From a virus (Duplodnaviria > Caudoviricetes): a stretch of 52,913 bases of DNA. Position 1 is the stretch's first letter, and each line of letters opens with the position of its first letter. The stretch spans positions 1 through 52,913 of the IMG/VR virus record IMGVR_UViG_3300044729_002905, one strand, 5' to 3'. This document shows, piece by piece, positions 1-50,298 of the stretch. Both the position numbers and the translations under genes were made by a program. The notes below the pieces were generated by a model, which did not search any database, was not told the DNA's origin, and was given only the letters and a program-made list of their open reading frames with translations.

Positions 1-1158
1 ACCACGGCGCAAAGAAATAGCGCCTTGACCTGTACTGCTTCCGGCAACTCCTTGAATTTGAAGCAGCGAATCACTAGCGCTCGAAGACGTGCCAACTAAC
101 AGGCGTCCCGAGCTGTCGATGCGGGCGCGTTCAGATCCGCCACCAGTTGCAAACAAAAGATCGCTTTGCGTCCTGACTGTACCTTGAGTCGAAGTGCCAG
201 AAGATAAAGTTGCTGCGCTACCGATATAAATAACGTTAGTGCCGGAAGATTGCACTGACAAATAACCGCCATTTACATTGCTCGAATTAAATCTTGCAAG
301 TTCTTGTCCAGTAGTTTCGCAATGTAGTAAAGCCTGAGGCCCAGTAACGCCAATCCCTAAACGCCCTGAGGAATCAATGTTGACAACCGGCGCTCCGTCT
401 CCTTTTTGCCATTCAAACGATGTCGCTCTATACGCTGCCGAGACATTTGCAGACCCAGCATCATTAAGGTAGTTAATTCGCAGCGAACTTGAGCTTTGCT
501 GAAAAAGAGCGTTATAGCCGGCGGCTGGCTTGATGTTTGTTTGTCCATTTACATCAAGCGTATAACCAGGGCTACTAGTCCCCAGACCTACCCGACCACT
601 GGAGTCAACAAACAGCCTTCCAGTGCCATTAGTTGAGATGGCTACTTGGTCGGCACCAGGAGAAAATAATCCAGAATTTGGGTCAGACGTAAAACTAATC
701 GAAGGGTTGGTCGCACTACCCGCCGCAAATACACCTGAAGTAAGCGTTACTGTTCCGCCGGTAACCGTTGTAAAGTTACCAACGTTACCCGTAACAGTAG
801 TACCGGAAACGGTAACAAAGTTAGCTGTAGTACCTGTGACCGTGGTACCAGTGATGGTGGTAAACCCTGCAGTTCCACCAGTTACTGTTGTAAATTGAGC
901 GGTAGTTCCAGTAACAGTAGTTCCCGTAACAGTGGTAAACCCTGCCGCGTTACCAGTGATGGTGCCAAATTGGCCAGCCGTGCCAGTAACTGTAGCTCCA
1001 GAAACAAGCGTTCCTCCACGGATTACATCACCAGAAATAGTTCCAGTTGCAGTAATGTTTCCAGAAATAGAAGCAACAACACCGGAAACAGAAATAGTTT
1101 GATCTACGCCTGCATTGGTAAATGTAATTTCATCTACCTTGATTTGACCGTACGGCAT
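1..1158 (-). CDS. Tail fibre protein, N-terminal part (runs off the left edge)
   Basis: Not in the ORF track because it is incomplete. ATG at 1158 reads MPYGQIKVDEITFTNAG..., then Thr/Gly repeats, 'GSATNPSISFTSDPNSGLFSPGADQVAISTNG' and 'RIDSSGRLLVGTS'-type repeats typical of cyanophage fibres. Confidence 0.8.
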   Translation of the reverse strand, partial: MPYGQIKVDEITFTNAGVDQTISVSGVVASISGNITATGTISGDVIRGGTLVSGATVTGTAGQFGTITGNAAGFTTVTGTTVTGTTAQFTTVTGGTAGFTTITGTTVTGTTANFVTVSGTTVTGNVGNFTTVTGGTVTLTSGVFAAGSATNPSISFTSDPNSGLFSPGADQVAISTNGTGRLFVDSSGRVGLGTSSPGYTLDVNGQTNIKPAAGYNALFQQSSSSLRINYLNDAGSANVSAAYRATSFEWQKGDGAPVVNIDSSGRLGIGVTGPQALLHCETTGQELARFNSSNVNGGYLSVQSSGTNVIYIGSAATLSSGTSTQGTVRTQSDLLFATGGGSERARIDSSGRLLVGTSSSASDSLLQIQGVAGSSTGQGAISLRRG

Positions 1159-1190
1159 TTGTCTCTATAAAATCTTTCTTTAATTGTAAC

Positions 1191-3017
1191 TCAGGGCAAG
1201 ATAATTAACGGACCTTGAATTATAAATCCACTGGTACTGCCAGAAACAACTCCTGAACATACAATTGCCGCCGTAGCGCCAGAAGGAGTCGTGATATGAA
1301 GCGTATTTCCAGTGATATTTGTAAATAACCCTGTGTTACCAGTAACTGTCGTACCAGATACAGTAACAAAGTTTGCGGTAGTTCCAGTTACGGTAGTACC
1401 TGTAACAGTAGTAAATCCTGCTGTACCGCCAGTGATAGAAGTGAATTGAGCAGTTGTACCTGTAAACGTTTGACCCGAAACAGTTCCTGTAACACTTAAG
1501 CCAGAACTAATGTAACCAGAACCAAGAGTAAACGTATCCCCAGAGAAAGTGAGGTTACCGCCAAATGCTTGGTTAACAGCAGTTAAGAATTCAAAGAAAC
1601 CAGACGTTGCGTTAACAACATTACCTGTAATGGTTGCACCAGAAACTTGTGCAGTGAACACTCCGGAAACTCCGGATAGTTGCGTAAAACTTCCAACGTT
1701 TCCTGTAACAGTTGTACCAGAAACTTGCGTTGTGAAAACACCAGAAACAAAATTAGCCGTTGTCCCGGTAACAGTTGCACCTGTGACCGTGGTGAAACCT
1801 GCTCCGTTACCCGTAATATTCGTGAACTGACCCGTATTGCCAGTAATAGTTGCACCAGAGATTTGGTCTGTAAAAACACCACTGATTCCAGTGACGGTAC
1901 TAAAGCGTCCAGTATTACCAGTAACGGTAGTTCCGCTGAGATTTACAAAGTTACCAGAAGTAAAGTTTGCAGTTGTACCAGTGATAGTGGTTCCACTTAA
2001 GGTGCCAGTGATCGTGACGCCAGAAGTAAAGAACCCTGAGCCAAGAACCGAAAGATTTCCGGAGACAGTTAAGTTGTTTTGAACTGTGTGCCCACTAGTA
2101 ATAAGTGTTCCAAATGTACCTGTAGTTGCATTGACATTGATTCCGGTAACGGTTGCACCAGAGACTTGACTGGTGAAAACACCAGAAATACCAGTGACGG
2201 TAGAAGCAAAAACCGTATTCCCAGTGATGGTTGCGCCAGAGATGCGATCAGTGAATACGCCAGAGACACCCGTGATATTTGCAAATTGACCAGTGTTTCC
2301 AGTAATGGTTGCACCGGAAATGCGATCAGTAAAAACTCCGGATACACCAGTAATGTTTGAAAACTGTCCCGTGTTTCCGGTAATGGTTTGACCTGACAGA
2401 AGCGAGGTGAAAACCCCAGTCGCGCCTGTGACACTTGTGAAATTGGCCGTATTTCCTGTTACTGTCGCACCAGAGACCTGTCCAGTAAAGACACCGGAAG
2501 AAAAGTTGGCAGTCGTACCAGTGATCGTGGTACCTGTCAAAGTGCCAGTAACCGTCACTCCAGAGGAGAAGAACGAATTACCAAGTGCAGACAGGGTGCC
2601 GGAGACGGTCAGATCTCCTTGAATGTTGTGTCCACTGGCGGTCAGATTTTGGAACGTTGCGTTTGTTGCATTTACTGTCGTACCAGTAATCGTAACGCCG
2701 CTTAGAGTTCCACTTACGTTAAGAGTTGTTTGAACGTAAACACCACTAAAGTTGGCAACACCAGTAGAAGTGACAGTGTTGAGAGTGGTAAGACCAGTAA
2801 CCGTTAATGGTGCGTTGATTGTGAGCGGACCAGTCATGGTCCCGCCACTAAGCGTTAAATATTTTGTGTTAAGGTAATTACTAAATTCTGAAAGAGTAAT
2901 TTTCTTATTCTTTAACGTCGGGTCAACCTCAAACACCCGAACGAGAGTGAGCAGATCTAACTCGCTTAAATCTGCTCCTACAATTGAGGGCAGCTCAGTA
3001 ATTCTCCTGTTTGCCAC
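1191..3017 (-). CDS. Thr/Gly-rich repetitive tail fibre or spike protein
   Basis: 608 aa. N-terminus 'MANRRITELP', a 'YLTLSGGTMTGPL' fibre motif and many 'SGATITGNTGQF..ITGVSGVFT' beta-solenoid-like repeats. Confidence 0.75.
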   Translation of the reverse strand: MANRRITELPSIVGADLSELDLLTLVRVFEVDPTLKNKKITLSEFSNYLNTKYLTLSGGTMTGPLTINAPLTVTGLTTLNTVTSTGVANFSGVYVQTTLNVSGTLSGVTITGTTVNATNATFQNLTASGHNIQGDLTVSGTLSALGNSFFSSGVTVTGTLTGTTITGTTANFSSGVFTGQVSGATVTGNTANFTSVTGATGVFTSLLSGQTITGNTGQFSNITGVSGVFTDRISGATITGNTGQFANITGVSGVFTDRISGATITGNTVFASTVTGISGVFTSQVSGATVTGINVNATTGTFGTLITSGHTVQNNLTVSGNLSVLGSGFFTSGVTITGTLSGTTITGTTANFTSGNFVNLSGTTVTGNTGRFSTVTGISGVFTDQISGATITGNTGQFTNITGNGAGFTTVTGATVTGTTANFVSGVFTTQVSGTTVTGNVGSFTQLSGVSGVFTAQVSGATITGNVVNATSGFFEFLTAVNQAFGGNLTFSGDTFTLGSGYISSGLSVTGTVSGQTFTGTTAQFTSITGGTAGFTTVTGTTVTGTTANFVTVSGTTVTGNTGLFTNITGNTLHITTPSGATAAIVCSGVVSGSTSGFIIQGPLIILP

Positions 3018-3064: not shown

Positions 3065-3418
3065 TTACTTTACTCGTACTTCAATTCGTGGTAAGTTTTG
3101 TGATGCAAAGTTCCAGGCTGCTGGCACACCGTAAACCAAGCCACAGGATACTGCGAAAATAACCAGAAGTTCAGCAATTGTCAGGTTACGGCGAACGTAA
3201 ACAACTTTAGTTGGAATTTGCAGTGGTTGATTAATTTCATATGTAACTTTTGGCTTTTGTTCCTGGGCTTGCTGTTGAGCGTAGTATTGTGCTACAGCCA
3301 GCTCACGAGCTTGTTGCTTCATGCGCTCCAGGTCTTCAGGAGTAATCTGACTAGGAACTGGAATTTGTGACTGCGGCGGCTCTTGACTATTGGTAGGAGC
3401 GGAAAAAAGATCTTCCAT
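3065..3418 (-). CDS. Hypothetical protein with a C-terminal transmembrane segment
   Basis: 117 aa, Gln/Pro-rich N-terminus and hydrophobic 'LLVIFAVSCGLVYGV'. Confidence 0.6.
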   Translation of the reverse strand: MEDLFSAPTNSQEPPQSQIPVPSQITPEDLERMKQQARELAVAQYYAQQQAQEQKPKVTYEINQPLQIPTKVVYVRRNLTIAELLVIFAVSCGLVYGVPAAWNFASQNLPRIEVRVK

Positions 3419-3473
3419 AAAACAAGCAGATTATCTGTAAAAAGACTAGCATTTAATCAGATTGATTGTTGGT

Positions 3474-4812: not shown

Positions 4813-5405
4813 TGCCTGCTTTTCTTGGTAACAAAAAAGTTGAAAACTACGAGTGGATCAGTAATCGTGACATGATTGATTCCGCTCATTTGCTGATGGG
4901 CGGTATTGATCTGGATCCAGCTAGCTCAGCAAAAGCTAACGAGTATGTCAACGCCAAGAAATTTTACACACCGAAGGAAGATGGTTTAAACGAGATGGAG
5001 TGGCATGGGAATGTGTATGTGTTCCCTCCACGCCATTCCTACTTTTGGCATGAGCAGTCCCAACGGTGGAAGATGACCAGGGGTTTGTCTCCAACGTTGA
5101 CTTCTGCTTATGCACTTTGGTGGCGCACTTTAAAAAGAAAGTGGGTCTCTGGTGAGATCGAACAGGGTGTGTATTTTGCCAATGCACCTGACATGTTTCT
5201 GTACTGTCAAGATATTTTCGATCATCCAATCTGTATCTTGAAGACGAGACCTATGCTGCATCAGCATTTTATTAACACAGGTGAGATCAAGGTTCGGAAT
5301 ACGTGCGCTTCTTTTGTTGTATTTCTTCAACCCAAAACAAATGTGACGGAAGCTACCGAACACTTTGTTGAGATTTACAGCCCCAAAGGCCGCGTTCTTG
5401 TCTGA
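4812..5405 (+). CDS. Phage DNA adenine methyltransferase-like protein with a divergent catalytic motif
   Basis: 'EW...IDLDPASS..AN.YV.AKKFYT..EDGL..EW.GNVYVFPP' matches phage Dam-like MTases, but the usual NPPY motif reads FPPR. Confidence 0.65.
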   Translation: MPAFLGNKKVENYEWISNRDMIDSAHLLMGGIDLDPASSAKANEYVNAKKFYTPKEDGLNEMEWHGNVYVFPPRHSYFWHEQSQRWKMTRGLSPTLTSAYALWWRTLKRKWVSGEIEQGVYFANAPDMFLYCQDIFDHPICILKTRPMLHQHFINTGEIKVRNTCASFVVFLQPKTNVTEATEHFVEIYSPKGRVLV

Positions 5406-21027: not shown

Positions 21028-21850
21028 CTCCTGGTCTCTAGTTTCTTAGAGGGGTGGACTATCTCTTCATCCCTGTGGGATGCCGGACGCTAAATCTGGT
21101 ATTACGTAACAAGAGCGTGTTACCCCCAGTAGTCTCTGCGCCTTCCAATCACGCTTGATTGGCTTGGCTCAGGATTACCCTCGTCTTTACGTTAGGGCTT
21201 CCCTGAATTCATCCGGTTTGCACTCACCAATTGCTCGATGAGGTGACAACGTTGAGCGTTCAGTTGAGGTATAGTAAGCCTGGAAACCTGTTCATAAACA
21301 ACATGGAACCAAAACTTGTACCTGGATTTGGTAATCTTTACTTAACTAAAGATGGAGAGGCTTTTGAAAAACGTCTTGATCCTGATAATCAAGAATATTT
21401 TAAAAGGGTTCCCATCAGTTCAACCAGTTCTTATGATCGTATTTCAGTTCTTGTTAATGGAAAAAGAAAACGTTTTCATCTTCATGTTTTGATGGCAGTG
21501 GCTTTTTTAGGATTAGATCTTCGTTCTCATGGAACAAATAACTTTTCCCTTCAAGTAGACCACATTGACAACAACAAAAGAAACAATAAGATTGAAAATC
21601 TTGAAGTTGTTACCAAACAAGAAAATTTAACAAGAGCCTGGAAAACGGGTTGTTACAAGAACAATGGTTTTGCCAGTAAAGGAAAGCCGAAGAATTCTTT
21701 GAGAAAGTTTTCTTCAGACGATGTGGCCAGAATTAAAACTTTAAAAGAAGCGGGACTTTCTTATAGAAAGATTGCTGAAAAGTTTAACTGTGGCCATGTA
21801 GCTATTTACCAAATCATTAAAGGTAATACCTACCAGGATCTGAACTAGCT
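21028..21850 (-). mobile_element. Group I self-splicing intron (823 nt) in the major capsid gene
   Basis: Minus-strand core: P GAAUUCAGGGAA, Q AAUCCUGAGC, R GCAGAGACUAC, S AAGAGAUAGUCC. The 5' exon ends in U and the intron ends in G. IGS CGUUGUCA (21244-21251) pairs with exon 1 UGAU and exon 2 AACG. Confidence 0.93.
21303..21848 (+). CDS. Intron-encoded HNH homing endonuclease, antisense to the intron
   Basis: NUMOD4-like N-terminus, 'LHVLMAVAFL...QVDHIDNNKRNNKIENLEVVTKQENL' and a C-terminal HTH. Likely start is ATG 21303. Confidence 0.9.
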   Translation: MEPKLVPGFGNLYLTKDGEAFEKRLDPDNQEYFKRVPISSTSSYDRISVLVNGKRKRFHLHVLMAVAFLGLDLRSHGTNNFSLQVDHIDNNKRNNKIENLEVVTKQENLTRAWKTGCYKNNGFASKGKPKNSLRKFSSDDVARIKTLKEAGLSYRKIAEKFNCGHVAIYQIIKGNTYQDLN

Positions 21851-34459: not shown

Positions 34460-36544
34460 TTAATCAAATAAATACGGGTTGCCAACAGCACGAACGTAAC
34501 GACTTAAAGCTTGTTGGGCGGGAGTAGCTTTTTTACCTAAAGAAGAAACAGATTTAGGACTAGAGCTACGACGTGGATAAGGGGAAAACTCGCCAATAGC
34601 AGAAACACCTAAATTTGCTATTTGTTGGCTCACAAAATCTTGAGCATCACGTCCTTCGATTCTAGCTCTACGCAACACTTCACTTGCGACAATACTTTCT
34701 TTAGCAGTTTCTCTACGTTGTAGTTCAGTTTCAAAAGATTGTTTAATACTAGGAGCTTTTGCAGCTTCTGCGCCAGCTACTAATTGTGGTATTGTTAAAG
34801 ATTCAAAACCACTACTGAGTTCTTTTTTTTGAAGCCAGCCCGGAACATAAGTAGGTTTACGAGAGGCAGCCGCAGAATACTCACCAGATGCTTTACTCAT
34901 TGCACCAGGAACATAACCTGGCTCAATTCCGTACACACCAATTCCAGCAGAACCACCTGGTACCTCAGGTGTTGCAGGGCGATTAAGAGATTGATACACA
35001 ATTTCTTGTTTTGATAATTCTTCTGAAGGAATATCTGCACTCATTGCACCTCTAGTACGCAAGGCACCAGGAATGTCTTGTCCCATCTCAAGGGGAATGT
35101 TGCGCACTAGTGGATCACCTGTTCCCATTAACTGGCGTTGCTCAAGTTTGGGAAGTGCTTCTTGAAGACTAGGTGCTGCACCACGAATTGCTGTACCTGC
35201 TGCAGTCGTTTCAATTTGTGCTTCTGGGCCAATATTAATAAGAGTTCGTTCGGGAAGAGGTGCTTCAGACTCGGGTCCAACACCAACAGCTTCTACTGCT
35301 TTACGAACTGTTTCAGGTAAAGAAATATCAACTTTACCTAATTCTTGTAAACGACGAAACTCGGAAGTACCTGGTTGAACACCAGACATAGATTTAGTTG
35401 TCCAGGTTTGCGCCAAAGCACGGTCAAAACGTTGGGTTCCAGGGCGTAAACCTTTTGCTTCAAGTTCTTGCCTTGCTGAAATCATTTGTGATTTAGCAAT
35501 GTCTGCAAGTTCTTGAGATGAAAGCGGACGAGCTGTTTCTACTTGATCAACAGGTAAACCATCTGGTAAACGAGAAGCAACTTGGCTAATGGGTTCGTCT
35601 TGCTCCATGCCAGCCAAATAGTTAGCATCTGCAACTTCTTCAAGTAATTCGACTTGAGTTAAATCAAGATCTTCATTGCGTTGCAGTTGTTGCTTAACAC
35701 GTCCTGTCATCTGATCTTCACCAGATTCAACAGCGTTAATTTTTTGATCAATAACTTGGGGTAAAGCTTGTTGCTGAACAGAAGTTAAATCTTCAATAGG
35801 AGCAAGAGATCCTTTTTGTTCAAGATAAGAACGTGGGTTAAAAATATTAAGTTGTTGAGGAGCAATAGACAAAGGGCGAGAAGGTGCTTCTTCTTGTACC
35901 AAACCTAAAAAGTCCCTGCGGACTGGACTGATGTTTGGACCAAACTCAGAACTACGAATTTGACGAAGTGTGGGAGAAACTTCACCACCTAACTCAAGTT
36001 GATAAGTAGCTGGAAGTGCTTCACGTGCAGCAGCAGCACTTTGAGTTGCAGCTTGACGACGCGTTTGAATTGTTTCTGAACTAATGCGAGGATATTCAAA
36101 TCGTGAAGGATACAACTCTTGGTATGTAGGTCCTTTGCGATACGGACTTTCGTACTCAATATCTTCTAATTGAGCTAAAGCGTTAGGTGCAGTAACAGTT
36201 TTTGACGGTTCAGGTTGCGTTTCTGCTACAACACGACGTACAGGTGACTCAGCACCAGCCATTTCAGAAAGGTTGGCTTGACGCACACCAGCATTTGCCG
36301 CAGGTTTACGGCCACCCATAAGACGACGAGCGCCAAGAACTGCTCCAACGCCACCAGCAAGAGTTAAACCTACTCCTAAACCAACAGAAAGAGGATCTGC
36401 TCCTTGTTTTTCAGGTGCTTTAAGCTGATTACGGCGAAATGCCAAGACTTCGGGCGCCATCTGTGCCCGTTCCATGGGGTCTTCGGGAATCGGTGCCCCA
36501 GTGGCACGACTGTAAGCATAAAAATCAGCTTGAGAAAGCGCCAT
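34460..36544 (-). CDS. Large low-complexity protein (putative virion)
   Basis: 694 aa with a TM-like glycine-rich helix near the N-terminus. Confidence 0.6.
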   Translation of the reverse strand: MALSQADFYAYSRATGAPIPEDPMERAQMAPEVLAFRRNQLKAPEKQGADPLSVGLGVGLTLAGGVGAVLGARRLMGGRKPAANAGVRQANLSEMAGAESPVRRVVAETQPEPSKTVTAPNALAQLEDIEYESPYRKGPTYQELYPSRFEYPRISSETIQTRRQAATQSAAAAREALPATYQLELGGEVSPTLRQIRSSEFGPNISPVRRDFLGLVQEEAPSRPLSIAPQQLNIFNPRSYLEQKGSLAPIEDLTSVQQQALPQVIDQKINAVESGEDQMTGRVKQQLQRNEDLDLTQVELLEEVADANYLAGMEQDEPISQVASRLPDGLPVDQVETARPLSSQELADIAKSQMISARQELEAKGLRPGTQRFDRALAQTWTTKSMSGVQPGTSEFRRLQELGKVDISLPETVRKAVEAVGVGPESEAPLPERTLINIGPEAQIETTAAGTAIRGAAPSLQEALPKLEQRQLMGTGDPLVRNIPLEMGQDIPGALRTRGAMSADIPSEELSKQEIVYQSLNRPATPEVPGGSAGIGVYGIEPGYVPGAMSKASGEYSAAASRKPTYVPGWLQKKELSSGFESLTIPQLVAGAEAAKAPSIKQSFETELQRRETAKESIVASEVLRRARIEGRDAQDFVSQQIANLGVSAIGEFSPYPRRSSSPKSVSSLGKKATPAQQALSRYVRAVGNPYLFD

Positions 36545-36644
36545 TTATGTTTATTGCACTAACTTTTGTCTGTTCACATTCTATTGTTGACAAATCTGGA
36601 GAATACATGCGATATATTTAATAAATACAGAAGTAAAACGTGAA

Positions 36645-36857
36645 ATGGACGCAGGTGTGCGCCAGAAAAGGGTAGAAGCCCTAGAAAAAATTAAAGATAA
36701 AGCCATGGAAATGGCTAAAACTGGACGTGATTCATTAGAAGTACGTGATTTTGTAACTGAAGCAAAGAAAGAATTAGCGTATGAGCTTCCAGATGAAGAT
36801 GCATTTCGTAAAGCAGTGGGTGCAACCAAGGCTTACATGAGCAAAAAACAAAAGTAA
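36645..36857 (+). CDS. Hypothetical protein
   Basis: 70 aa, followed by a terminator. Confidence 0.65.
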   Translation: MDAGVRQKRVEALEKIKDKAMEMAKTGRDSLEVRDFVTEAKKELAYELPDEDAFRKAVGATKAYMSKKQK

Positions 36858-36881
36858 ACATAAGTAAAGTTTATTAAACAC

Positions 36882-36911
36882 GCCGGGGCATAAAACGACC
36901 CCGGCTTTTTT
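36882..36911 (+). terminator. Intrinsic terminator
   Basis: GCCGGGG-loop-CCCCGGC followed by TTTTTT. Confidence 0.85.
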
Positions 36912-37169
36912 GTGTCAAAGTTTGGGCTAAGTGCACTTTTGAAGTACAAATGGGTATTTTATATATTTTTTGAGTATAAATACTTATTTATTTAAATGAA
37001 GGGGTCAACTTTTTAACTTGTTTGGGGTAATAATTGTCCGAGTGTTCTCCCACCCCCTATACGTAGTGAGTTACGTGTAGAAAAAAAAGAATGCGGGGTG
37101 GTCATATTAATAAGTAATTGTACCTAGGTAAGATTCACATGGAAATGTCAGCGTTTCAACATATTTACC

Positions 37170-37189
37170 TGTGGAAAACCTGTGGAAAT
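37170..37189 (-). promoter_or_regulatory. Tandem DnaA-box-like 9-mers
   Basis: TGTGGAAAA (reverse complement TTTTCCACA) at 37170 and TGTGGAAAT at 37181, after an AT-rich non-coding stretch. Confidence 0.45.
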
Positions 37190-37279
37190 GGGGAATCTCC
37201 TCGCTCCCTCCCTGTTCAGGAATGACTGTCGTCGTTTAGGAGCTGAGATCCATTGCGGCGCAAGGGTTTTCAGCGATTC

Positions 37280-37309
37280 ACGTCTAGCTGATGGACGTTA
37301 AATCGTAGC
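37280..37309 (+). ncRNA. Family C pseudoknot element, divergent copy
   Basis: ACGTCT-agctgat-GGACGT-TAA-ATCGTAGC. Confidence 0.4.
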
Positions 37310-37337
37310 GAGTTCATTCTAATTACTTATCAACATC

Positions 37338-37520
37338 ATGATTTACACCGTTCAAGTCAAGCGTGATTACTTTAATCAATACGCTGATTACACCTTTCAA
37401 GATGAATACTTCAATGGTTCCGAGAAACAGTTCAACACAGAAGAGGAAGCTGTTCAGTACTTCAAGTCTTTTGAAGACTGGGAGCAAGATCTTCTAATGG
37501 TTGAATCGTTTCCTTTCTGA
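37338..37520 (+). CDS. Early hypothetical protein
   Basis: 60 aa, acidic. Confidence 0.6.
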   Translation: MIYTVQVKRDYFNQYADYTFQDEYFNGSEKQFNTEEEAVQYFKSFEDWEQDLLMVESFPF

Positions 37521-37588
37521 GTACCAGGCATGATGCCGGGGGATCGAATCCCCCACTCAGTATTACCCTTAGCGGAGATGGGTACCGC
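37517..37588 (+). ncRNA. Family A tRNA-like junction element, copy 1
   Basis: CTGAGT/ACTCAG closing stem, GGCA/TGCC hairpin, GGGG-ATCGAAT-CCCC T-arm, then TATTACCC...GGGTACCGC. Confidence 0.55.
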
Positions 37589-37603
37589 CATTGAATCAAT
37601 CTC

Positions 37604-37807
37604 ATGTTTATTTCTTTTAACAAAGTTGTAGCTCTTTACTTTGCTATGGTTTTTATATGTGTTGGAGCTACAACACTATTTGCAACTGTAGGTGTGCATA
37701 AATTAGATCAGGCAACTGCACAACAGTGCCGCACACATGATTGGCCTGCAGACAAGCATCAAGTTCACATGGCTTGGTGCGCAGCTAATGGCTATCAAAC
37801 TAATTAA
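37604..37807 (+). CDS. Early membrane or secreted small protein
   Basis: N-terminal TM and 'QQCRTHDWPADKH...WC..NGY'. Confidence 0.6.
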   Translation: MFISFNKVVALYFAMVFICVGATTLFATVGVHKLDQATAQQCRTHDWPADKHQVHMAWCAANGYQTN

Positions 37808-37855
37808 TCAGGCTGTGCCCTCCTCATTGGGGTGCCTTAGCAGGTTAATTATTTA

Positions 37856-37931
37856 AGTTGATTCGTACCCAAGCGAGTCCGGTGGTGCAAACCCACCGGC
37901 AACTATTACCCCCAGCGGAGATGGGTACCGC
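37856..37931 (+). ncRNA. Family A element, copy 2
   Basis: AGTTG/CAACT, ATTCG/CGAGT, CCGGTGG-TGCAAAC-CCACCGG, then TATTACCC...GGGTACCGC. Confidence 0.55.
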
Positions 37932-37937
37932 ACACAC

Positions 37938-38237
37938 ATGGAGTTATCCATGGATCTGACTACAGGTTGGAAGCCACATGATATACCAGGTGGTTATCGC
38001 CTGGTTTACTCAGATGACTTGGTCGGAGGCATATCCATTGTTACTGGACCGCGAGGTTCAGGACTGATGGCAGCTAACGACCCAGGTCAAGAGACCACAT
38101 ACGAAGTGTGGTTTCCAGGATTAGCTGATCCAACTGGTCACCTAACACTTGATGAGATTAAAGGAATCATCAAGTATTTGCGTCAGCGAGAAGAAGAATT
38201 TATATACACAGCGTATAGCGATTATGAAAACAACTGA
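37938..38237 (+). CDS. Early hypothetical protein
   Basis: 99 aa between two family A elements. Confidence 0.6.
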   Translation: MELSMDLTTGWKPHDIPGGYRLVYSDDLVGGISIVTGPRGSGLMAANDPGQETTYEVWFPGLADPTGHLTLDEIKGIIKYLRQREEEFIYTAYSDYENN

Positions 38238-38300
38238 TCCGTAAAAGCGGGTGACCAGGTGCAAACCCTGGTCCAGTTATTGCCGCTCACTAAGAGTGGC
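38232..38300 (+). ncRNA. Family A element, copy 3
   Basis: AACTG/CAGTT, TCCGT/GCGGG, GACCAGG-TGCAAAC-CCTGGTC, then TATTGCC and a hairpin. Confidence 0.55.
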
Positions 38301-38311
38301 TTACGTTAATT

Positions 38312-38467
38312 ATGGCTATTCGCAAATCACTTGCGTCATTCCTTGTAGCTACAGCTAATAAGCTGGAGCGTGATCAAAGCAAAGAGAAGGTGGGAACAAC
38401 AATCAAGGCTGTTCGCTTTGCACTTGCTAATGCGATCATGCCGAAAGTCCCACCTGTTCATCGTTAA
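38312..38467 (+). CDS. Early small protein (51 aa)
   Basis: MAIRKSLASFLVATANKLERD..., manual translation. Confidence 0.5.
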   Translation: MAIRKSLASFLVATANKLERDQSKEKVGTTIKAVRFALANAIMPKVPPVHR

Positions 38468-38484
38468 TTTATTTATCAAGTCAA

Positions 38485-38733
38485 ATGATTATCTATCAAC
38501 CTCACATCAACTCAACCGATCGTGTCATATGGCACGGTGGTGAATCAACCCAATTGCATTACGAACAACAGGTCGACGGTTGGGATGGCAATCCCGACTG
38601 GATAGACCGCAATGTTCAAACTCTTGGCAGTGGTATACCCACAAGCATGAGTGAAATGCACACTCATATGCAAGAGTTTTACAACTATTGCCAGGTGTGC
38701 GAATTTGAGCAACGCATGGCAATGGCAGACTGA
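38485..38733 (+). CDS. Early hypothetical protein
   Basis: 82 aa. Confidence 0.55.
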   Translation: MIIYQPHINSTDRVIWHGGESTQLHYEQQVDGWDGNPDWIDRNVQTLGSGIPTSMSEMHTHMQEFYNYCQVCEFEQRMAMAD

Positions 38734-38788
38734 TGTTTGCAACTAACCCTGAGTAACACCAGGGTTTTCTGCAGACTTCACATCTGCA
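38731..38788 (+). ncRNA. Family B bistable hairpin element, copy 1
   Basis: GTTTGCA-act-AACCCTG-loop-CAGGGTT-ttc-TGCAGAC, with an alternative partner TCTGCA downstream. Confidence 0.55.
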
Positions 38789-38816
38789 CTCAATTCAACT
38801 CAACCCACTTAGGACT

Positions 38817-39059
38817 ATGTCTCCTGCAAGTGTTGAACAACTTCTGATCCAAGACGCCAGGCTTCTCGCTCGTCGAGATGCACCTGCTATTGACCAAGAG
38901 ATTGAGAGTGCGCGGCAACAAGCACTCGAAATCTTTTACCAATGGCAAGACGGATTGGTTCAGTTCCAGGATCTAATCCCATTCGTTATTGTTCTCGAGA
39001 AGAAAGTCGATCTTAATCGTGCGCTTCTCAAATGGGAACAAGAACACATGATGGATTGA
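38817..39059 (+). CDS. Early hypothetical protein
   Basis: 80 aa between two family B elements. Confidence 0.6.
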   Translation: MSPASVEQLLIQDARLLARRDAPAIDQEIESARQQALEIFYQWQDGLVQFQDLIPFVIVLEKKVDLNRALLKWEQEHMMD

Positions 39060-39115
39060 TTCCTGCACTTAACCCTGAGTAACACCAGGGTTTTCTGCAG
39101 GACTTAACATCCTGT
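39057..39115 (+). ncRNA. Family B element, copy 2
   Basis: TCCTGCA-ctt-AACCCTG..CAGGGTT-ttc-TGCAGGA, then TCCTGT downstream. Confidence 0.55.
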
Positions 39116-39141
39116 CTATTAATTCAACTTAACTTAATTCA

Positions 39142-39534
39142 ATGACTTACGCTGATCTGCAAACGTTTACTGCTGTTGGTCGCATTGCTAATCTCACTGT
39201 TATTCAAACAGAAGATGAGCGCGATTGTTTGGTTGTTACTCTATACCACCGTATCTCTCAGGATGCTGTGGTCACAATCAAATTCCTCAACAGCAATGGT
39301 TTGCTTACTGCTTACACACATGACAATCTGGTTGTAGGCCAAGAGCTTACGGTGTCTGGAAAAATTCAAGGCATCCGTGCTTTCTATATGAAAGATGAAG
39401 AGCTCATGCCGCTCAAGCAACCAGAGTTTCAATTGAAAGTGATTGATTATACCTTTGGTTCCAAGCCTCAGCCTAAAGCTGAGGAAGGAACGAAGGTTAC
39501 TAGTAAGAAGAAGGTTGCATCTACTGCTGCCTAA
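39142..39534 (+). CDS. OB-fold / SSB-like protein
   Basis: 'TFTAVGRIAN...LVVGQELTVSGKI' resembles SSB; the tail is basic. Confidence 0.45.
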   Translation: MTYADLQTFTAVGRIANLTVIQTEDERDCLVVTLYHRISQDAVVTIKFLNSNGLLTAYTHDNLVVGQELTVSGKIQGIRAFYMKDEELMPLKQPEFQLKVIDYTFGSKPQPKAEEGTKVTSKKKVASTAA

Positions 39535-39546
39535 CTTATTACTGAC

Positions 39547-39618
39547 TGATTCTTGCACTTAACCCTTCTCATCAATGATGAGTGGGTTTTCTGCAGGAGA
39601 TCCTCTCTCCCCTCCTGC
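39547..39618 (+). ncRNA. Family B element, copy 3
   Basis: TTCTTGCA-ctt-AACCC..GGGTT-ttc-TGCAGGAG, then CTCCTGC downstream. Confidence 0.55.
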
Positions 39619-39629
39619 CCACCGCAACG

Positions 39630-39645
39630 TAGTACAGGTGTACTA
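39630..39645. promoter_or_regulatory. Cyanobacterial LexA box
   Basis: TAGTACAGGTGTACTA matches RGTAC-NNND-GTWCB and is intergenic. Confidence 0.65.
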
Positions 39646-39694
39646 TTTCGCCCATCAACCGTTAGGTTGATTCCTACTACACAGGTATTCCCTC

Positions 39695-39913
39695 ATGAAA
39701 CAGATTACTAAACTTGGTCCTAAACAATTTATTCACACTGATGTGTACCCTGAGTACCACAGCAGAAAGATAGGACGTTACTTTTGTAACTTCTTATCTA
39801 CAACCATTGTTATCTGCATCGCTTTTGTCGTAACAGGCGCTATGCTTGGTACCGACTTAACTAAGCCTTTACTACAGTGGTCACGCCAACAAACATTGGT
39901 CGTACCACGGTAA
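39695..39913 (+). CDS. Early small membrane protein
   Basis: 72 aa with one TM segment. Confidence 0.5.
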   Translation: MKQITKLGPKQFIHTDVYPEYHSRKIGRYFCNFLSTTIVICIAFVVTGAMLGTDLTKPLLQWSRQQTLVVPR

Positions 39914-39938
39914 ACTAATTAACCTAGCCGTTACTCCA

Positions 39939-40304
39939 ATGGTCTCACCAGCAGAACACATCACACATGCTTCGTTGAAGTGGAGATCTAACGGCGAACT
40001 ATCTGATTACGATCTAAGGTCTATCACTGCAAAGTTGATGGCCTTTGAACAAAGACCATTCACACTACCAGAAACTCAACCTATGACATACGTAGCTCTC
40101 GTCGCTGATTCTACCGGACGTTATGCCCATGTCTATGGCAATGCTAATAGCTGGGATAACTACATTGATCAACTCGAAGACATTGGATGTGAAGTCATTG
40201 AAAACCAGACCAGCGAATGGGATGGCGATGACGAAGCAATCAAAGAAGATTGCATTCACATCAGTAACTTAATGAAAGATACAGATTTTGTACCATTCGA
40301 TTAG
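39939..40304 (+). CDS. Early hypothetical protein (alternative start 40083)
   Basis: 121 aa ORF. Confidence 0.5.
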   Translation: MVSPAEHITHASLKWRSNGELSDYDLRSITAKLMAFEQRPFTLPETQPMTYVALVADSTGRYAHVYGNANSWDNYIDQLEDIGCEVIENQTSEWDGDDEAIKEDCIHISNLMKDTDFVPFD

Positions 40305-40362
40305 CTACGGATAATACATTACTTGGAATTCTGATAAACGTCGTTTATTCATATTCCCGATA

Positions 40363-40393
40363 AACGTCCTGAGTATGACGTTAAACTGCTCAG
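40363..40393 (+). ncRNA. Family C H-type pseudoknot element
   Basis: AACGTC-CTGAGTAT-GACGTT-AAAC-TGCTCAG. Confidence 0.6.
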
Positions 40394-40412
40394 TCCTTTA
40401 TCAACTCATCTA

Positions 40413-40571
40413 ATGACAACTCAACCACTTGATGAGAACTACAATGCAGATCTTCTTGACGCATGGTCTGACCTTGCGTACCAGCAGGAGCAAGCAATGC
40501 GAGAAGAAATGCAACCACCTAACCAAACCAACGAGGTAACCAATGACTCAACCACAGACTCAACAATATAA
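40413..40571 (+). CDS. Early small acidic protein (52 aa)
   Basis: MTTQPLDENYNADLLDAWSDLAYQQE... Confidence 0.45.
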   Translation: MTTQPLDENYNADLLDAWSDLAYQQEQAMREEMQPPNQTNEVTNDSTTDSTI

Positions 40572-40923
40572 TGATGATGTAATACTACACATCATCGTTA
40601 TCCTGACCATTCTCGCCACACTGTTCCTCCAATTCATTTCACTACTATGGCCCTCCAACCAGTCCAACACGAAATCGCTGCAGTCGTTGGGTACACCCCA
40701 CTCACCAACGATGAAGGACAAGAGCCTGCCGACACCACACTCTGTTTCCACACCGTTGAAGACAGAGGAGGTTGGCCGCACATCTACTGGAAAGGTGAGT
40801 GGTACCCCGTCCCAACCCTCGAGGAAGTCGAGGAGTGGGTCTTCGACTCAGTCTGCTTTACGCCAGACGAGGACGAAACGGAACCCGACGACCCCAACAG
40901 TTGGCTCTCAATCCTTAACCTAA
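40543..40923 (+). CDS. Membrane-anchored Ser/Thr-rich protein (overlapping)
   Basis: Clear TM 'VILHIIVILTILATLFLQFISLLW'. Confidence 0.4.
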   Translation: MTQPQTQQYNDDVILHIIVILTILATLFLQFISLLWPSNQSNTKSLQSLGTPHSPTMKDKSLPTPHSVSTPLKTEEVGRTSTGKVSGTPSQPSRKSRSGSSTQSALRQTRTKRNPTTPTVGSQSLT

Positions 40924-40928
40924 TTTAA
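40647..40928 (+). CDS. Early acidic hypothetical protein
   Basis: 'PTLEEVEEWVFDSVCFTPD...EPDDPNSWLSILNLI'. Confidence 0.6.
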   Translation: MALQPVQHEIAAVVGYTPLTNDEGQEPADTTLCFHTVEDRGGWPHIYWKGEWYPVPTLEEVEEWVFDSVCFTPDEDETEPDDPNSWLSILNLI

Positions 40929-40993
40929 GTATTAAATTGCACGTTAAATTTACCAATACTACCCATGTATTGGTAATAGTGTTAATACTACAA

Positions 40994-41034
40994 GCTGGGC
41001 ATCCACTGTGGATATACATGGTGTAAGTCCCAGC
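40994..41034 (+). ncRNA. Family D element, copy 1
   Basis: GCTGGG-CAT-hairpin-TGTAAGT-CCCAGC. Confidence 0.6.
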
Positions 41035-41055
41035 ATTCACCTCAACTCAACTGTT

Positions 41056-41265: not shown

Positions 41266-41304
41266 CTGGGCATCCACTACGTAAGTATGTGGTGTAAGTC
41301 CCAG
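41266..41304 (+). ncRNA. Family D element, copy 2
   Basis: CTGGG-CAT-CCAC..GTGG-TGTAAGT-CCCAG. Confidence 0.6.
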
Positions 41305-43833: not shown

Positions 43834-43872
43834 CTGGGCATCACCTACATAAGTACGGTGTGTAAGCCCCAG
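43834..43872 (+). ncRNA. Family D element, copy 3
   Basis: CTGGG-CAT-CACC..GGTG-TGTAAGC-CCCAG. Confidence 0.6.
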
Positions 43873-44633: not shown

Positions 44634-44663
44634 AACGTCCTGAGCATGACGTTAAACTGCTCA
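44634..44663 (+). ncRNA. Family C H-type pseudoknot element
   Basis: AACGTC-CTGAGCAT-GACGTT-AAAC-TGCTCA. Confidence 0.6.
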
Positions 44664-46481: not shown

Positions 46482-46703
46482 ATGATTAACTACACAGACG
46501 AACAACTACTTGCCATGGCCATGGCAAACATTGGCACTTACATTCATGACAACTCACCTCAGTACATCTTGATTGAAGACCCACGTAACGAAGATGATTA
46601 CGATACGTGGGATTACGGCTGTGAACCATTACCTCATGACCACACTTGGCAACACACATCAATTGATGTGAGTGTAAGCCCAAGTGATGGGGATGTGGCG
46701 TAA
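46482..46703 (+). CDS. Early acidic hypothetical protein
   Basis: 73 aa; the 3' end overlaps a family D element and the tRNA 5' end. Confidence 0.5.
   Translation: MINYTDEQLLAMAMANIGTYIHDNSPQYILIEDPRNEDDYDTWDYGCEPLPHDHTWQHTSIDVSVSPSDGDVA
46643..46686 (+). ncRNA. Family D element, copy abutting the tRNA
   Basis: CACTTGG-CAA-hairpin(CACATC/GATGTG)-TGTAAGC-CCAAGTG. Confidence 0.5.
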
Positions 46704-46774
46704 TCGGTAGCCGCTGCGCACTTAAAATGCGTTGACCATTGGTCGTGTCGGTTCAAGTCCGACCATCCCTACCA
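46689..46774 (+). tRNA. trnL: tRNA-Leu (anticodon UAA), intronless, with encoded CCA
   Basis: Acceptor GGGGATG/CATCCCT, anticodon arm GCGCA-CTTAAAA-TGCGT, long variable arm, GGTTCAAGTCC T-arm, ACCA end. Confidence 0.95.
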
Positions 46775-46794
46775 ATCCATTTGCAATTAAAACT

Positions 46795-47289
46795 ATGCAA
46801 CCTATTGTTACTTACACTAAGCCACAACAAGTATCTGTATTTAAAACAGATAACTATTTTCACATTTCTGTTACTGATGACAACGGAATTGAACAATCAA
46901 TTAAGTTGCCAACCAGTACAACTAAAGTAATTAAAACAGTACAACAAACTCCTGTTGTAATTGAACCAGAAGCTGTTAAACCTTCTATTGTTCGTATTGA
47001 TCGTACAGAAGATGGTCGTCAAATCGAACAACGAATTGAACCAAAAATTGTAAAACTTCCTAGAGAAGAACCTAAAAAATATAAAAAACAAAACCAAAAT
47101 TCAAAACCATTTACATCTAAACTTACACGATCACAAGTAATGGAAATTAAAACAATGCTTTATGATCCAAAGTTTATGGCTACTTATCCATCTTGTTATC
47201 AAGCTTATAAAGAAATCGCTAGTATTTATGGTGTTACTTATATGTGTATTCAGTTTATTCACAAAGGAGTTACCTGGAAAAATGTTTGA
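46795..47289 (+). CDS. Protein with a C-terminal HNH-associated HTH
   Basis: 'SKLTRSQVMEIK...YKEIASIYGVT...I..I.KGVTWKNV'. Start ATG 46795. Confidence 0.6.
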   Translation: MQPIVTYTKPQQVSVFKTDNYFHISVTDDNGIEQSIKLPTSTTKVIKTVQQTPVVIEPEAVKPSIVRIDRTEDGRQIEQRIEPKIVKLPREEPKKYKKQNQNSKPFTSKLTRSQVMEIKTMLYDPKFMATYPSCYQAYKEIASIYGVTYMCIQFIHKGVTWKNV

Positions 47290-47292
47290 TTA

Positions 47293-47322
47293 CCTGGGCA
47301 TCTACATAGTGTAAGTCCCAGG
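47293..47322 (+). ncRNA. Family D element, minimal copy
   Basis: CCTGGG-CAT-CTAcaTAG-TGTAAGT-CCCAGG. Confidence 0.6.
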
Positions 47323-50073: not shown

Positions 50074-50270
50074 TTAAACAACACACTCTTTATTGTTCTT
50101 GAGATCAGCAACAGATTTGTTTTGTTCTTTGACCCAGCGGTTAAGCTGTTCTTTTTTAACAGCAAAGTAAATTAATTTTGCAGGGCTCATGGATCTGTAG
50201 TAATTACTACAAAATTGTATTTGATTTTTTGTTATGCGGTAGTTTGCTGCGTAACAAAACTTAGTTGACT

Positions 50271-50298
50271 TGTCCTAGGCATGACATTAAACTGCTCA
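50271..50298 (+). ncRNA. Family C H-type pseudoknot element
   Basis: TGTC-CTAGGCAT-GACA-TTAAAC-TGCTCA. Confidence 0.55.

What the first reader, a model, noticed from the sequence alone, without database searches (positions are those of the whole stretch)
37517..38300. Family A: tRNA-like three-way junction with a T-arm followed by conserved UAUURCC
Seen three times (37517, 37856, 38232): a 5-6 bp closing stem, a short variable hairpin, a GC-rich hairpin with a 7-nt T-loop-like loop (AUCGAAU, UGCAAAC, UGCAAAC), then TATT(A/G)CC. The stems differ in sequence but all pair. In copies 1 and 3 the upstream TGA lies inside the closing stem. Inference: an acceptor/T-arm mimic recruiting RNase P or RNase Z to cut the polycistron, or a decoy for anti-phage tRNA nucleases.
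Basis: partly seen in the sequence, partly recalled or inferred. Interest (0 to 1): 0.72.

Follow-up and report, generated by a model that had tools for sequence, protein, structure and literature searches.

The report
Stop-codon-embedded tRNA-like RNA junctions in cyanophage
Between the first small genes of this cyanophage's early operon sits a conserved folded RNA module, a three-way junction with a tRNA-like T-arm that contains the upstream gene's stop codon and is followed by a pseudoknot or hairpin; it most likely marks where the long messenger RNA is cut and protected.

Summary
All three copies (37517, 37856, 38232) fold as three-way junctions.

- **Copies 2 and 3:** they belong to a family with 74 matches (62 distinct) in 37 sources: the window, Synechococcus phage S-EIVl and 35 IMG/VR contigs. 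97% of cells are paired, and 15 of 18 pairs show compensatory changes.
- **Copy 1:** it belongs to a sister subfamily with 20 matches.
- **Stop codon:** a stop triplet sits at a fixed place in the closing stem in 71 of 71 contexts. It ends the upstream gene in 57 of 71.
- **P3 loop:** it follows the T-loop pattern U-[G/U]-C-R-A-N-N in 61 of 62.
- **TATTRCC:** this is an AUU linker plus the first 3 bp of a covarying downstream pseudoknot (copies 1 and 2) or hairpin (copy 3).
- **Known families:** no Rfam family, tRNA, terminator or promoter matches.

Best reading (0.45): an intercistronic mRNA processing and stability module cut in the AUU linker by a host nuclease. RNase Z fits the geometry, and RNase E is the alternative. 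RNase P is unlikely because its cut would remove the stop codon. Five of 20 sister copies lack the closing stem, which weakens strict tRNA mimicry. No cleavage data exist.

The parts
37517..37560 (+). Copy 1 (c1-type) three-way junction. P1 is 37517-37522 with 37555-37560. The stop TGA of the 60-aa gene 37338-37520 is at 37518-37520. P2 is 37527-37537. P3 is 37538-37554.
   Evidence: MFE fold. RNAalifold on 11 c1-type copies. Pair counts: 99.4% paired, 5 of 16 pairs changed on both sides. R3 score 82.7 bits.
37561..37588 (+). Linker U-AUU (37561-37564) and an H-type pseudoknot. S1 is 37565-37568 with 37580-37583. S2 is 37572-37575 with 37585-37588. The next gene starts at ATG 37604.
   Evidence: Alignment of 44 distinct type-i contexts. 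99.1% of cells paired against 24-45% when slid, and both stems covary.
37856..37904 (+). Copy 2 (c2-type) three-way junction. P1 is 37856-37860 with 37900-37904. P2 is 37861-37866 with 37873-37878. P3 is 37879-37885 with 37893-37899, with loop UGCAAAC at 37886-37892. The TGA at 37859-37861 is not used here as a gene stop.
   Evidence: R1 76.7 bits. Orthologue in S-EIVl at L001:4209-4266 with compensatory changes. Covariation.
37905..37952 (+). AUU linker (37905-37907) and a pseudoknot. S1 is 37908-37911 with 37923-37926. S2 is 37915-37918 with 37928-37931. A small hairpin (37937-37941 with 37948-37952) then holds GGAG and the likely start ATG at 37950.
   Evidence: pseudoknot; a hairpin holding GGAG and the start codon in 16 of 44 type-i contexts by a strict pattern.
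38232..38278 (+). Copy 3 (c2-type) three-way junction. P1 is 38232-38236 with 38274-38278. The stop TGA of the gene ending at 38237 is at 38235-38237. P2 is 38237-38242 with 38247-38252. P3 is 38253-38259 with 38267-38273, with loop UGCAAAC at 38260-38266.
   Evidence: R1 80.7 bits. Orthologue in S-EIVl at L001:4503-4560. MFE z -3.83. Covariation.
38279..38300 (+). AUU linker (38279-38281) and a 7-bp P4 hairpin (38282-38288 with 38294-38300, loop ACUAA). The next gene starts at ATG 38312.
   Evidence: MFE fold of 38225-38305: z -5.10, 0 of 200 shuffles. Related loci keep the hairpin with different stem letters (downstream sequences printed).

Best explanation
Family A is a cis-acting structured RNA module in the sense strand of the phage's early polycistronic mRNA. 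It sits at the first intercistronic junctions.

Anatomy, which is shown:
- The upstream gene's stop codon lies at the P1/P2 boundary.
- A three-way junction follows, with almost no unpaired junction bases. It has P1 (4-6 bp), P2 (a short, sequence-conserved hairpin) and P3 (6-7 bp, G-C closed, with a T-loop-pattern loop).
- A conserved AUU linker comes next.
- P4 follows, always starting RCC. It is an H-type pseudoknot or a hairpin.
- A short A/C-rich leader then leads to the next start codon.

Mechanism, which is inferred: a host endoribonuclease cuts in or next to the AUU linker. The upstream cistron is left with its stop codon buried in a compact 3'-terminal tRNA-like fold that resists 3' exonucleases. 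The downstream cistron is left with a 5'-proximal hairpin or pseudoknot that shields its 5' end from RNase E and RNase J.

Candidate enzymes: RNase Z fits the P1-containing copies. They offer a 12-bp acceptor/T-like stack, a T-loop elbow, an A at the discriminator place, uracils right after it and no CCA. RNase E is the alternative, because the site has U at +2/+3 and A at -4.
For: - **Structure:** 97.0% of cells paired, 15 of 18 pairs with changes on both sides, slid controls 34-49%. The same holds for the c1-type and for the pseudoknot.
- **Strand:** P2 keeps two U.G pairs (UG in 50 and 61 of 62 rows). These would be A.C mismatches on the other strand, so the sense strand is the folded one.
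- **Stop codon:** a stop triplet (UGA 68, UAA 3) sits at the same place in 71 of 71 distinct c2-type contexts. The upstream frame is open for at least 40 codons in 57 of 71, against 19 of 71 and 8 of 71 in the other two frames. For the c1-type the figures are 11 of 12 and 9 of 9 new matches.
- **T-loop pattern:** 61 of 62 loops fit and the closing pair is G-C in 61 of 62. The definition of the motif was read in PMC4810234.
- **Helix length:** P1+P3 is 12 bp in 25 of the 35 c2-type cores that close as three-way junctions, 11 in 5 and 13 in 5. It is 13 bp by MFE in 10 of 11 c1-type cores, or 12 if the loop is read as a pentaloop.
- **Linker:** the U's of AUU are invariant, the A is at least 90% conserved and CC is invariant in 44 type-i contexts. 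The tail reads ATT in 53 of the 58 rows listed in the tally of 62 distinct c2-type rows, and CTT in the other 5.
- **RNase Z:** it is stimulated about 200-fold by a uracil within 2 nt after the discriminator (passage in PMC10100781). It binds the acceptor stem and T-arm, while the D and anticodon arms are dispensable (passages in PMC7479834).
- **RNase E:** the cyanobacterial enzyme prefers A at -3/-4 and U at +2 in single-stranded RNA (PMC8682795).
- **Placement:** there are 2-4 model matches per genome, clustered within about 1 kb of each other, in the four IMG/VR genomes rated 91-100% complete and in the S-EIVl record. One follows each small gene.
- **Exclusions:** no terminator-like or promoter-like site lies at the elements.
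- **Host enzymes:** the phage genomes searched encode no metallo-beta-lactamase (RNase Z-type) or CCA-adding family. The Synechococcus elongatus control has both, so a host enzyme would have to act.
Against: - No RNA ends, cleavage or expression data are available, so every mechanistic step is inferred.
- 5 of 20 c1-type matches have no P1 but keep P2, a compensated P3, the tail and P4. In them an acceptor-stem-dependent enzyme cannot act, so strict tRNA mimicry is not universal.
- At least the archaeal RNase Z enzymes need a mature 5' end (PMC7479834). Here a whole cistron precedes P1.
- The single-stranded linker is only 3-4 nt, which is short for RNase E.
- P2 is conserved in sequence rather than only in shape (CG 60, CG 60, GC 62, UG 61 of 62). 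That hints at a specific protein or tertiary contact which this model does not explain.
- In 14 of 71 contexts, window copy 2 among them, the embedded stop is not the upstream gene's stop.
- The tRNA model and ARAGORN do not score the elements.
Confidence: 0.45

Rival explanations
1. A pure nuclease barrier with no dedicated cut. The three-way junction plus the pseudoknot or hairpin stalls 3'-to-5' exonucleases, or 5'-to-3' RNase J in the manner of an xrRNA. Decay that starts elsewhere then stops at each cistron boundary.
For: Compact G+C-rich helices, a T-loop and a pseudoknot are the parts used by viral exonuclease-resistant RNAs: a three-way junction with pseudoknots in flaviviruses, and a T-loop with a pseudoknot in plant viruses (passages in PMC12397905). 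Copies without P1 still fit this reading.
Against: No pseudoknot links the 5' flank to the junction, which is the ring of xrRNAs. Only type-i copies have a pseudoknot at all. This reading does not explain the strict conservation of AUU and RCC. Nothing was tested.
Confidence: 0.2
2. Translational control. A ribosome terminating at the embedded stop must melt P1 and P2. This remodelling, or its absence, changes access to the downstream start, which in many copies sits with GGAG in a small hairpin. Expression of neighbouring cistrons is coupled in this way.
For: The stop codon is at a fixed position in the helix. A hairpin holding GGAG and the start codon is present in 16 of 44 type-i contexts.
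Against: Stop and next start are roughly 75-90 nt apart in the window's three copies, with stable independent folds in between. No alternative pairing between the junction and the start region was seen. 14 of 71 copies are not reached by the upstream frame.
Confidence: 0.15
3. A binding platform for a specific phage or host protein, such as an early-gene repressor, a chaperone or an antitermination factor. The protein would recognise the sequence-conserved P2 hairpin, the P3 loop and AUURCC.
For: P2 hardly covaries but is conserved in sequence, including two U.G pairs. The P3 loop and the tail are nearly invariant.
Against: The c1-type has a different P2 and P3 loop but the same flanks and position. 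That argues for recognition of shape rather than sequence. No candidate protein was identified.
Confidence: 0.1
4. RNase P together with RNase Z releases the junction as a free tRNA-like small RNA of about 50 nt. This RNA acts in trans, for example as a decoy or competitor for tRNA-binding defence nucleases or processing enzymes.
For: The acceptor/T-like stack and the T-loop pattern. One relative has a four-helix, cloverleaf-like version at L031:112-173.
Against: The 5' cut would leave the upstream mRNA without a stop codon in 57 of 71 and 20 of 21 copies. There is no anticodon-arm analogue. The tRNA model and ARAGORN do not score the elements. Copies without P1 exist.
Confidence: 0.05
5. A DNA-level element: a promoter, a terminator, a recombination joint for shuffling gene cassettes, or a small mobile repeat.
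For: The element recurs at gene boundaries. Different P4 types follow the same gene pair in different phages (window copy 1 against L025), which suggests exchange at the joints.
Against: The conserved U.G pairs are strand-specific. There is no U-tract and no promoter-like hexamer pair. The copies are syntenic between the window and S-EIVl at about 73% identity. The stems vary in sequence while the pairing is kept.
Confidence: 0.05

Closest known systems
tRNA-like processing signals in long transcripts: the mitochondrial tRNA punctuation model, plant mitochondrial t-elements, and the MALAT1 mascRNA. Recalled, apart from a passage in PMC4810234 saying that long non-coding RNAs use tRNA mimicry to recruit RNase P.
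   Same: A compact tRNA-shaped fold inside a long transcript at a boundary between functional units. It has an acceptor/T-like stack and a T-loop-pattern loop.
   Different: This element has three helices, not a cloverleaf, and no anticodon arm. The stop codon of the upstream gene is inside the acceptor-like stem, so the usual RNase P cut would be harmful. A pseudoknot or hairpin follows. It is in a DNA phage. No cleavage has been shown.
tRNA T-arm / T-loop motif
   Same: A G-C closed stem with a 7-nt loop U-[G/U]-C-R-A-N-N in 61 of 62 copies. U1 and A5 are as in the motif definition read in PMC4810234. One relative, L025:10047-10089, carries the canonical UUCAAUU loop.
   Different: The stem is 7 bp, not 5. 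Position 2 is mostly G, not U. No D-loop partner is evident. The three-dimensional fold is untested.
3' tRNA-like structures with pseudoknots of plant RNA viruses (TYMV and TMV type). Recalled; tRNA mimicry by viruses is reviewed in PMC5723415, seen only in search listings.
   Same: Viral tRNA mimicry combined with pseudoknots, next to the end of a coding region.
   Different: Those structures are 3'-terminal, end in CCA and are aminoacylated. This element is internal, has no CCA, and its pseudoknot lies downstream of the tRNA-like part rather than inside it.
Exonuclease-resistant RNAs (xrRNA)
   Same: A three-way junction, a T-loop and a pseudoknot as building blocks (PMC12397905).
   Different: There is no 5'-end-to-junction pseudoknot forming a ring. 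Many copies have a plain hairpin instead of a pseudoknot.
Rfam RF02435 SpF41 sRNA (Streptococcus)
   Same: This is the best Rfam alignment. Its consensus also has an outer stem, a small hairpin, a T-arm-like hairpin and then a further hairpin.
   Different: It scores 23.1 bits against a gathering score of 52, with E 0.43-2.4, so the element is not a member.

Membership tests
tRNA (Rfam RF00005, ARAGORN) | A cloverleaf with D, anticodon and T arms that is recognised by the tRNA model | tested here: not met
   ARAGORN finds only the tRNA-Leu at 46689-46774. There is no RF00005 match at E up to 10 in 36500-41000 or 37500-38320.
T-loop motif | A five-nucleotide loop core with U at position 1 and A at position 5; in tRNA the loop is closed by G53-C61 and followed by two variable bases | tested here: met
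   61 of 62 distinct c2-type loops fit U-[G/U]-C-R-A-N-N and the closing pair is G-C in 61 of 62. This is a sequence pattern only. The reverse-Hoogsteen pair itself cannot be tested with these tools.
RNase Z substrate (tRNA-like) | An acceptor-like stem stacked on a T-arm, about 12 bp in all | tested here: inconclusive
   P1+P3 is 12 bp in 25 of the 35 c2-type cores that close as three-way junctions, 11 in 5 and 13 in 5. 17 further cores lose the outermost pair; 13 of them still close with a 4-bp P1, giving 11 bp. 5 of 20 c1-type matches have no P1 at all.
RNase Z substrate (tRNA-like) | An unpaired discriminator followed by uracil within 2 nt, with no CC or CCA | tested here: met
   The AUU linker has A at 90% or more and both U's invariant in 44 contexts. 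The tail reads ATT in 53 and CTT in 5 of the 58 rows listed among 62 distinct c2-type rows. The rule was read in PMC10100781 and PMC7479834.
RNase Z substrate (tRNA-like) | Actual cleavage 3' of the discriminator, and tolerance of a long 5' extension | not testable with these tools
   No RNA run was listed. Archaeal RNase Z enzymes need a mature 5' end (PMC7479834). The Synechococcus enzyme's behaviour is not known to me.
RNase P substrate | A 5' cut at the first base of the acceptor-like stem that is compatible with function | tested here: not met
   The cut would lie upstream of the in-frame stop codon in 57 of 71 c2-type contexts and in 20 of 21 c1-type copies. The upstream cistron would be left without a stop.
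Intrinsic terminator | A G+C-rich hairpin followed by a run of U | tested here: not met
   None of the terminator-like sites found in 36400-39700 lies at the three elements. The stems are followed by AUU and then a further helix.
Any Rfam 15 family, including known self-cleaving ribozymes | A score at or above the family's gathering threshold | tested here: not met
   The gathering scan of the window finds only the group I intron and the tRNA. E-value scans give nothing above 23.1 bits.
H-type pseudoknot (downstream part of copies 1 and 2) | Two interleaved stems, each supported by covariation | tested here: met
   44 sequences with 99.1% of cells paired. S1 pairs: GC 28, AU 15, GU 1; and CG 27, UG 9, UA 8. 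S2 pairs: GC 38, CG 5; and CG 33, AU 5, UA 5. Slid controls are 24-45%. The loop between S1 and S2 on the 3' side is only 1 nt, so the geometry is unusual.
Viral 3' tRNA-like structure (TLS) | 3'-terminal position with a CCA end that can be aminoacylated | tested here: not met
   The element is internal to an operon and is followed by AUU and more mRNA.

The most novel reading that the evidence does not exclude
A lineage of DNA phages punctuates its immediate-early polycistronic mRNA with minimal tRNA mimics: an acceptor/T-arm stack plus one extra hairpin. Each mimic carries the stop codon of the gene it follows. Host tRNA 3'-processing (RNase Z, possibly followed by CCA addition) then cuts the transcript into monocistronic mRNAs. 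Each of these ends in a tRNA-like cap and starts with a pseudoknot or hairpin. This would be a bacterial-virus counterpart of the mitochondrial tRNA punctuation model.
Probability: 0.25. Interest if true: 0.8.

Novelty: new variant of a known kind. Interest (0 to 1): 0.62.

Why it matters
This is a well-supported structured RNA family that no Rfam 15 model matches. My literature searches did not find it either.

In the collections searched it is confined to relatives of Synechococcus phage S-EIVl. It occurs in 35 of the 80 IMG/VR loci returned, and the only hit among the genomes of 185,579 species is one contig that is itself S-EIVl-like.

It combines four features in one module: a stop codon built into a helix, a T-loop-pattern hairpin, a conserved AUU linker and a covarying pseudoknot. 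If it is a processing signal, it would show how a cyanophage controls the stability of its first-expressed genes with host tRNA or mRNA nucleases. It would also give a compact, portable intercistronic insulator for cyanobacterial synthetic operons. S-EIVl is a cultured phage with a known host, so the prediction can be tested directly.

Tried and rejected
- **TATTRCC as a stand-alone motif:** there are 23 matches in the window against 11.5 expected. Most are unrelated, so the motif has meaning only behind the junction.
- **Pairing between the P3 loop (GCAA) and the tail (UUGC):** rejected. The tail R varies G/A and covaries with the Y of the downstream stem (GC 28, AU 15), while the loop does not change.
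- **Known ribozymes, riboswitches and sRNAs:** no Rfam match.
- **Terminator or promoter:** no site at the elements.
- **Host origin:** one scan of genome contigs found a single contig, and that contig is an S-EIVl-like fragment.
- **Phage-encoded RNase Z-type or CCA-adding enzyme:** none in the 5 records searched, while the controls were positive.
- **The phage's own tRNA-Leu:** it encodes CCA, so it says nothing about RNase Z use.
- **RNA runs:** no RNA holder was listed.
- **Catalogue of IMG/VR structured RNAs (PMC10690425):** I read passages only. Its supplements are closed, so the catalogue may already contain this motif.
- **First script for the stop-codon count:** for the c2-type it picked earlier stop triplets by mistake. 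I replaced its c2-type numbers with the alignment-anchored count. Only its c1-type numbers are used.
- **First filing of the report:** turned back for a schema slip, because the confidence field was in the wrong place.
Full report
**Setting.** The window is a complete IMG/VR virus record of 52,913 bases, rated 66% complete. Its only relative among named phages is Synechococcus phage S-EIVl, at 73% identity over 41% of a 4-kb query.
- Genes on the minus strand up to about 36.5 kb include a terminase.
- From about 36.6 kb the plus strand carries many small genes. Further on come a PcfJ-like protein, a GP88-family protein and a family A DNA polymerase.
- The three elements lie at the first three gene junctions of this rightward, early-type operon. 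They are downstream of a terminator at 36882-36905 and a 400-nt non-coding stretch.

Each copy folds by minimum free energy into a three-way junction, with z-scores of -3.0 to -3.8 and 0 or 1 of 200 shuffles folding as well. S-EIVl has orthologues of copies 2 and 3 at the same gene junctions, and their stems carry compensatory changes.
- A covariance model built from these four sequences (R1) was run on 80 IMG/VR loci.
- 35 of the 80 loci had matches, often several per locus. The other 45 had none at E up to 1 and are taken as chance pattern matches.
- The alignment holds 74 matches, 62 of them distinct, from 37 sources.
- 97.0% of cells are paired, against 34-49% when partners are slid by 1-3 columns. 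15 of 18 pairs change on both sides, and 0 of 500 shuffles reach the observed values.
- P2 holds two conserved U.G pairs, so the fold belongs to the sense strand.

**Copy 1 is a sister type.** Neither c2-type model finds it (7.9 bits, E=6).
- A script that looked for a tail motif behind a closing stem containing a stop triplet recovered 12 look-alikes in 11 loci and the window.
- Eleven of them align with 99.4% of cells paired and 5 of 16 pairs changed on both sides.
- Model R3, built from these, gives 20 matches, 9 of them new. In the window it matches copy 1 only.
The loop is therefore UCGAA, or CGA if one more pair forms.
- A relative at the orthologous junction has a canonical UUCAAUU T-arm (L025:10047-10089).
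- Another relative has four helices, like a small cloverleaf (L031:112-173).

1. *The stop codon is part of the element.* A stop triplet (UGA 68, UAA 3) occupies the same columns at the P1/P2 boundary in 71 of 71 distinct c2-type contexts.
   - The frame that it closes is open for at least 40 codons upstream in 57 of 71, against 19 and 8 of 71 for the other two frames.
   - For the c1-type the figures are 11 of 12 and 9 of 9.
   - Where G changes to A in the triplet, its partner changes from C to U. UGA becomes UAA and the pair is kept (rows L048:7087, L020:2979 and L034:1980).
2. *The P3 loop follows the T-loop pattern.* It fits U-[G/U]-C-R-A-N-N in 61 of 62 and has a G-C closing pair in 61 of 62.
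3. *TATTRCC is two things.* It is an AUU linker plus the first three pairs (RCC) of a downstream structure.
   - In 44 distinct contexts, copies 1 and 2 among them, that structure is a pseudoknot. Both its stems covary: 99.1% of cells are paired, against 24-45% in the slid controls.
   - In others it is a 7-bp hairpin with loop ACUAA or similar (copy 3), or a 5-bp hairpin.
4. *A further hairpin at the start codon.* After the pseudoknot, 16 of 44 contexts have a small hairpin that holds GGAG and the start codon. In the window this places the true start of the third gene at ATG 37950.

**Distribution.**
- The four IMG/VR relatives rated 91-100% complete and the S-EIVl record carry 2-4 c2-type matches each, all within about 1 kb.
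- A scan of one genome for each of 185,579 prokaryote species found one contig. It matches S-EIVl and carries both element types.
- No Rfam family matches. The best is SpF41 at 23.1 bits against a threshold of 52.

**Mechanism.** What is shown is an RNA fold under selection, tied to the end of one cistron and the start of the next. What it does is inferred. I favour an intercistronic processing and stability module with a cut in the AUU linker.
- *For RNase Z:* P1+P3 is 11-13 bp, most often 12, like the acceptor plus T stems. The loop has the T-loop pattern. The base after P1 is A, followed by two U's and no CCA. This matches the reported 200-fold stimulation by a uracil within 2 nt of the discriminator (PMC10100781) and the enzyme's contacts with the acceptor stem and T-arm only (PMC7479834).
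- *For RNase E:* the same site has U at +2 and +3 and mostly A at -4, close to the Synechocystis signature (PMC8682795).
- *What either cut would give:* the stop codon would stay on the upstream mRNA inside a compact 3' fold. The next mRNA would start with a structured 5' end.
- *Against RNase P:* its cut would remove the stop codon.
- *Against strict tRNA mimicry:* 5 of 20 c1-type matches lack P1 but keep a compensated P3. Some RNase Z enzymes need a mature 5' end. P2 is conserved in sequence, which suggests an unidentified partner.
- *Phage enzymes:* the phage records searched encode no RNase Z-type or CCA-adding enzyme.

**Rivals.** They are a nuclease barrier without a dedicated cut, translational coupling through melting of the junction by the terminating ribosome, a protein-binding platform, a released tRNA-like small RNA or decoy, and DNA-level roles. 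None could be excluded by experiment here. The strand-specific U.G pairs and the missing terminator and promoter signals argue against the DNA-level readings.

**Limits.**
- No RNA data could be obtained: none was listed.
- Papers were read as passages found by term search, not in full.
- Statements about mitochondrial punctuation, mascRNA, t-elements and plant-virus TLS are recalled, not read here.
- The alignments used for the pair counts were fitted to, or predicted from, the same structure, which favours it. The slid controls and the many double changes speak against an artefact.

Noticed in passing
window 38729-38775, 39055-39101, 39550-39600: A second family of intercistronic elements. 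It is a long hairpin with internal loops (z -4.1 to -5.3) whose 5' strand again begins at the upstream gene's CUGAU/UUGAU stop context. S-EIVl has it too, at about L001:5290-5335.
   Followed up: partly
window 40994-41036, 41266-41304, 43834-43872, 47294-47321: A third repeat family (CUGGG...CCCAG closing stem, z -1.7 to -2.8). In the first three copies the stem is followed by an A/C-rich tail (CAUUCACC in the first and third, UAUCAACC in the second), which resembles the AUURCC tail of Family A. R1 aligned the first copy weakly (9.2 bits) through the stem and tail only.
   Followed up: partly
window 40363-40392, 44634-44663, 50269-50298; L001 about 3415-3432 and 4996-5022: A conserved 30-nt motif ending in TAAACTGCTCA lies upstream of genes. 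Two of the three copies show no significant fold (z -0.1 and +0.4; the third is -2.3). It is shared with S-EIVl and may be a phage-specific promoter.
   Followed up: no
window 21035-21303 (-) and 21231-21848 (+): A group I intron (89 bits) on the minus strand overlaps the start of a plus-strand ORF that carries HNH endonuclease and helix-turn-helix domains.
   Followed up: no
window 46689-46774: tRNA-Leu (anticodon UAA) inside the rightward operon. It has an encoded CCA and is overlapped by a 185-aa ORF call (46732-47289) that is probably spurious at its start.
   Followed up: partly
L031:112-173 (also L054:6554-6615); L025:9511-9561, L032:1419-1469, L053:5608-5657, L021:139-188, L054:6837-6886: Variants of the c1-type. 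One form has four helices, like a miniature cloverleaf. Five copies have lost the closing stem but keep P2, a compensated P3, the tail and the downstream hairpin.
   Followed up: partly
window 37937-37952 and 16 of 44 related contexts: A 5-bp hairpin holds GGAG in its 5' strand and loop and the start codon in its 3' strand. Its stem letters covary (CAUGG/CCAUG, CACGG/CCGUG, ACAGG/CCUGU).
   Followed up: partly
window 762-2717 (-): Many imperfect direct repeats with periods of 15, 30, 75 and 78 nt lie inside the 608-aa ORF 1191-3017 and the neighbouring open-ended ORF 1-1158, neither with a Pfam match established here. This looks like a repetitive fibre- or tail-type protein.
   Followed up: no
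L001:4275-4511 (S-EIVl CDS AHV82201.1): The annotated start ATG lies inside the conserved pseudoknot (GGAGAUGGG). An in-frame GTG at L001:4302, preceded by AGGAG, is the more likely start.
   Followed up: partly
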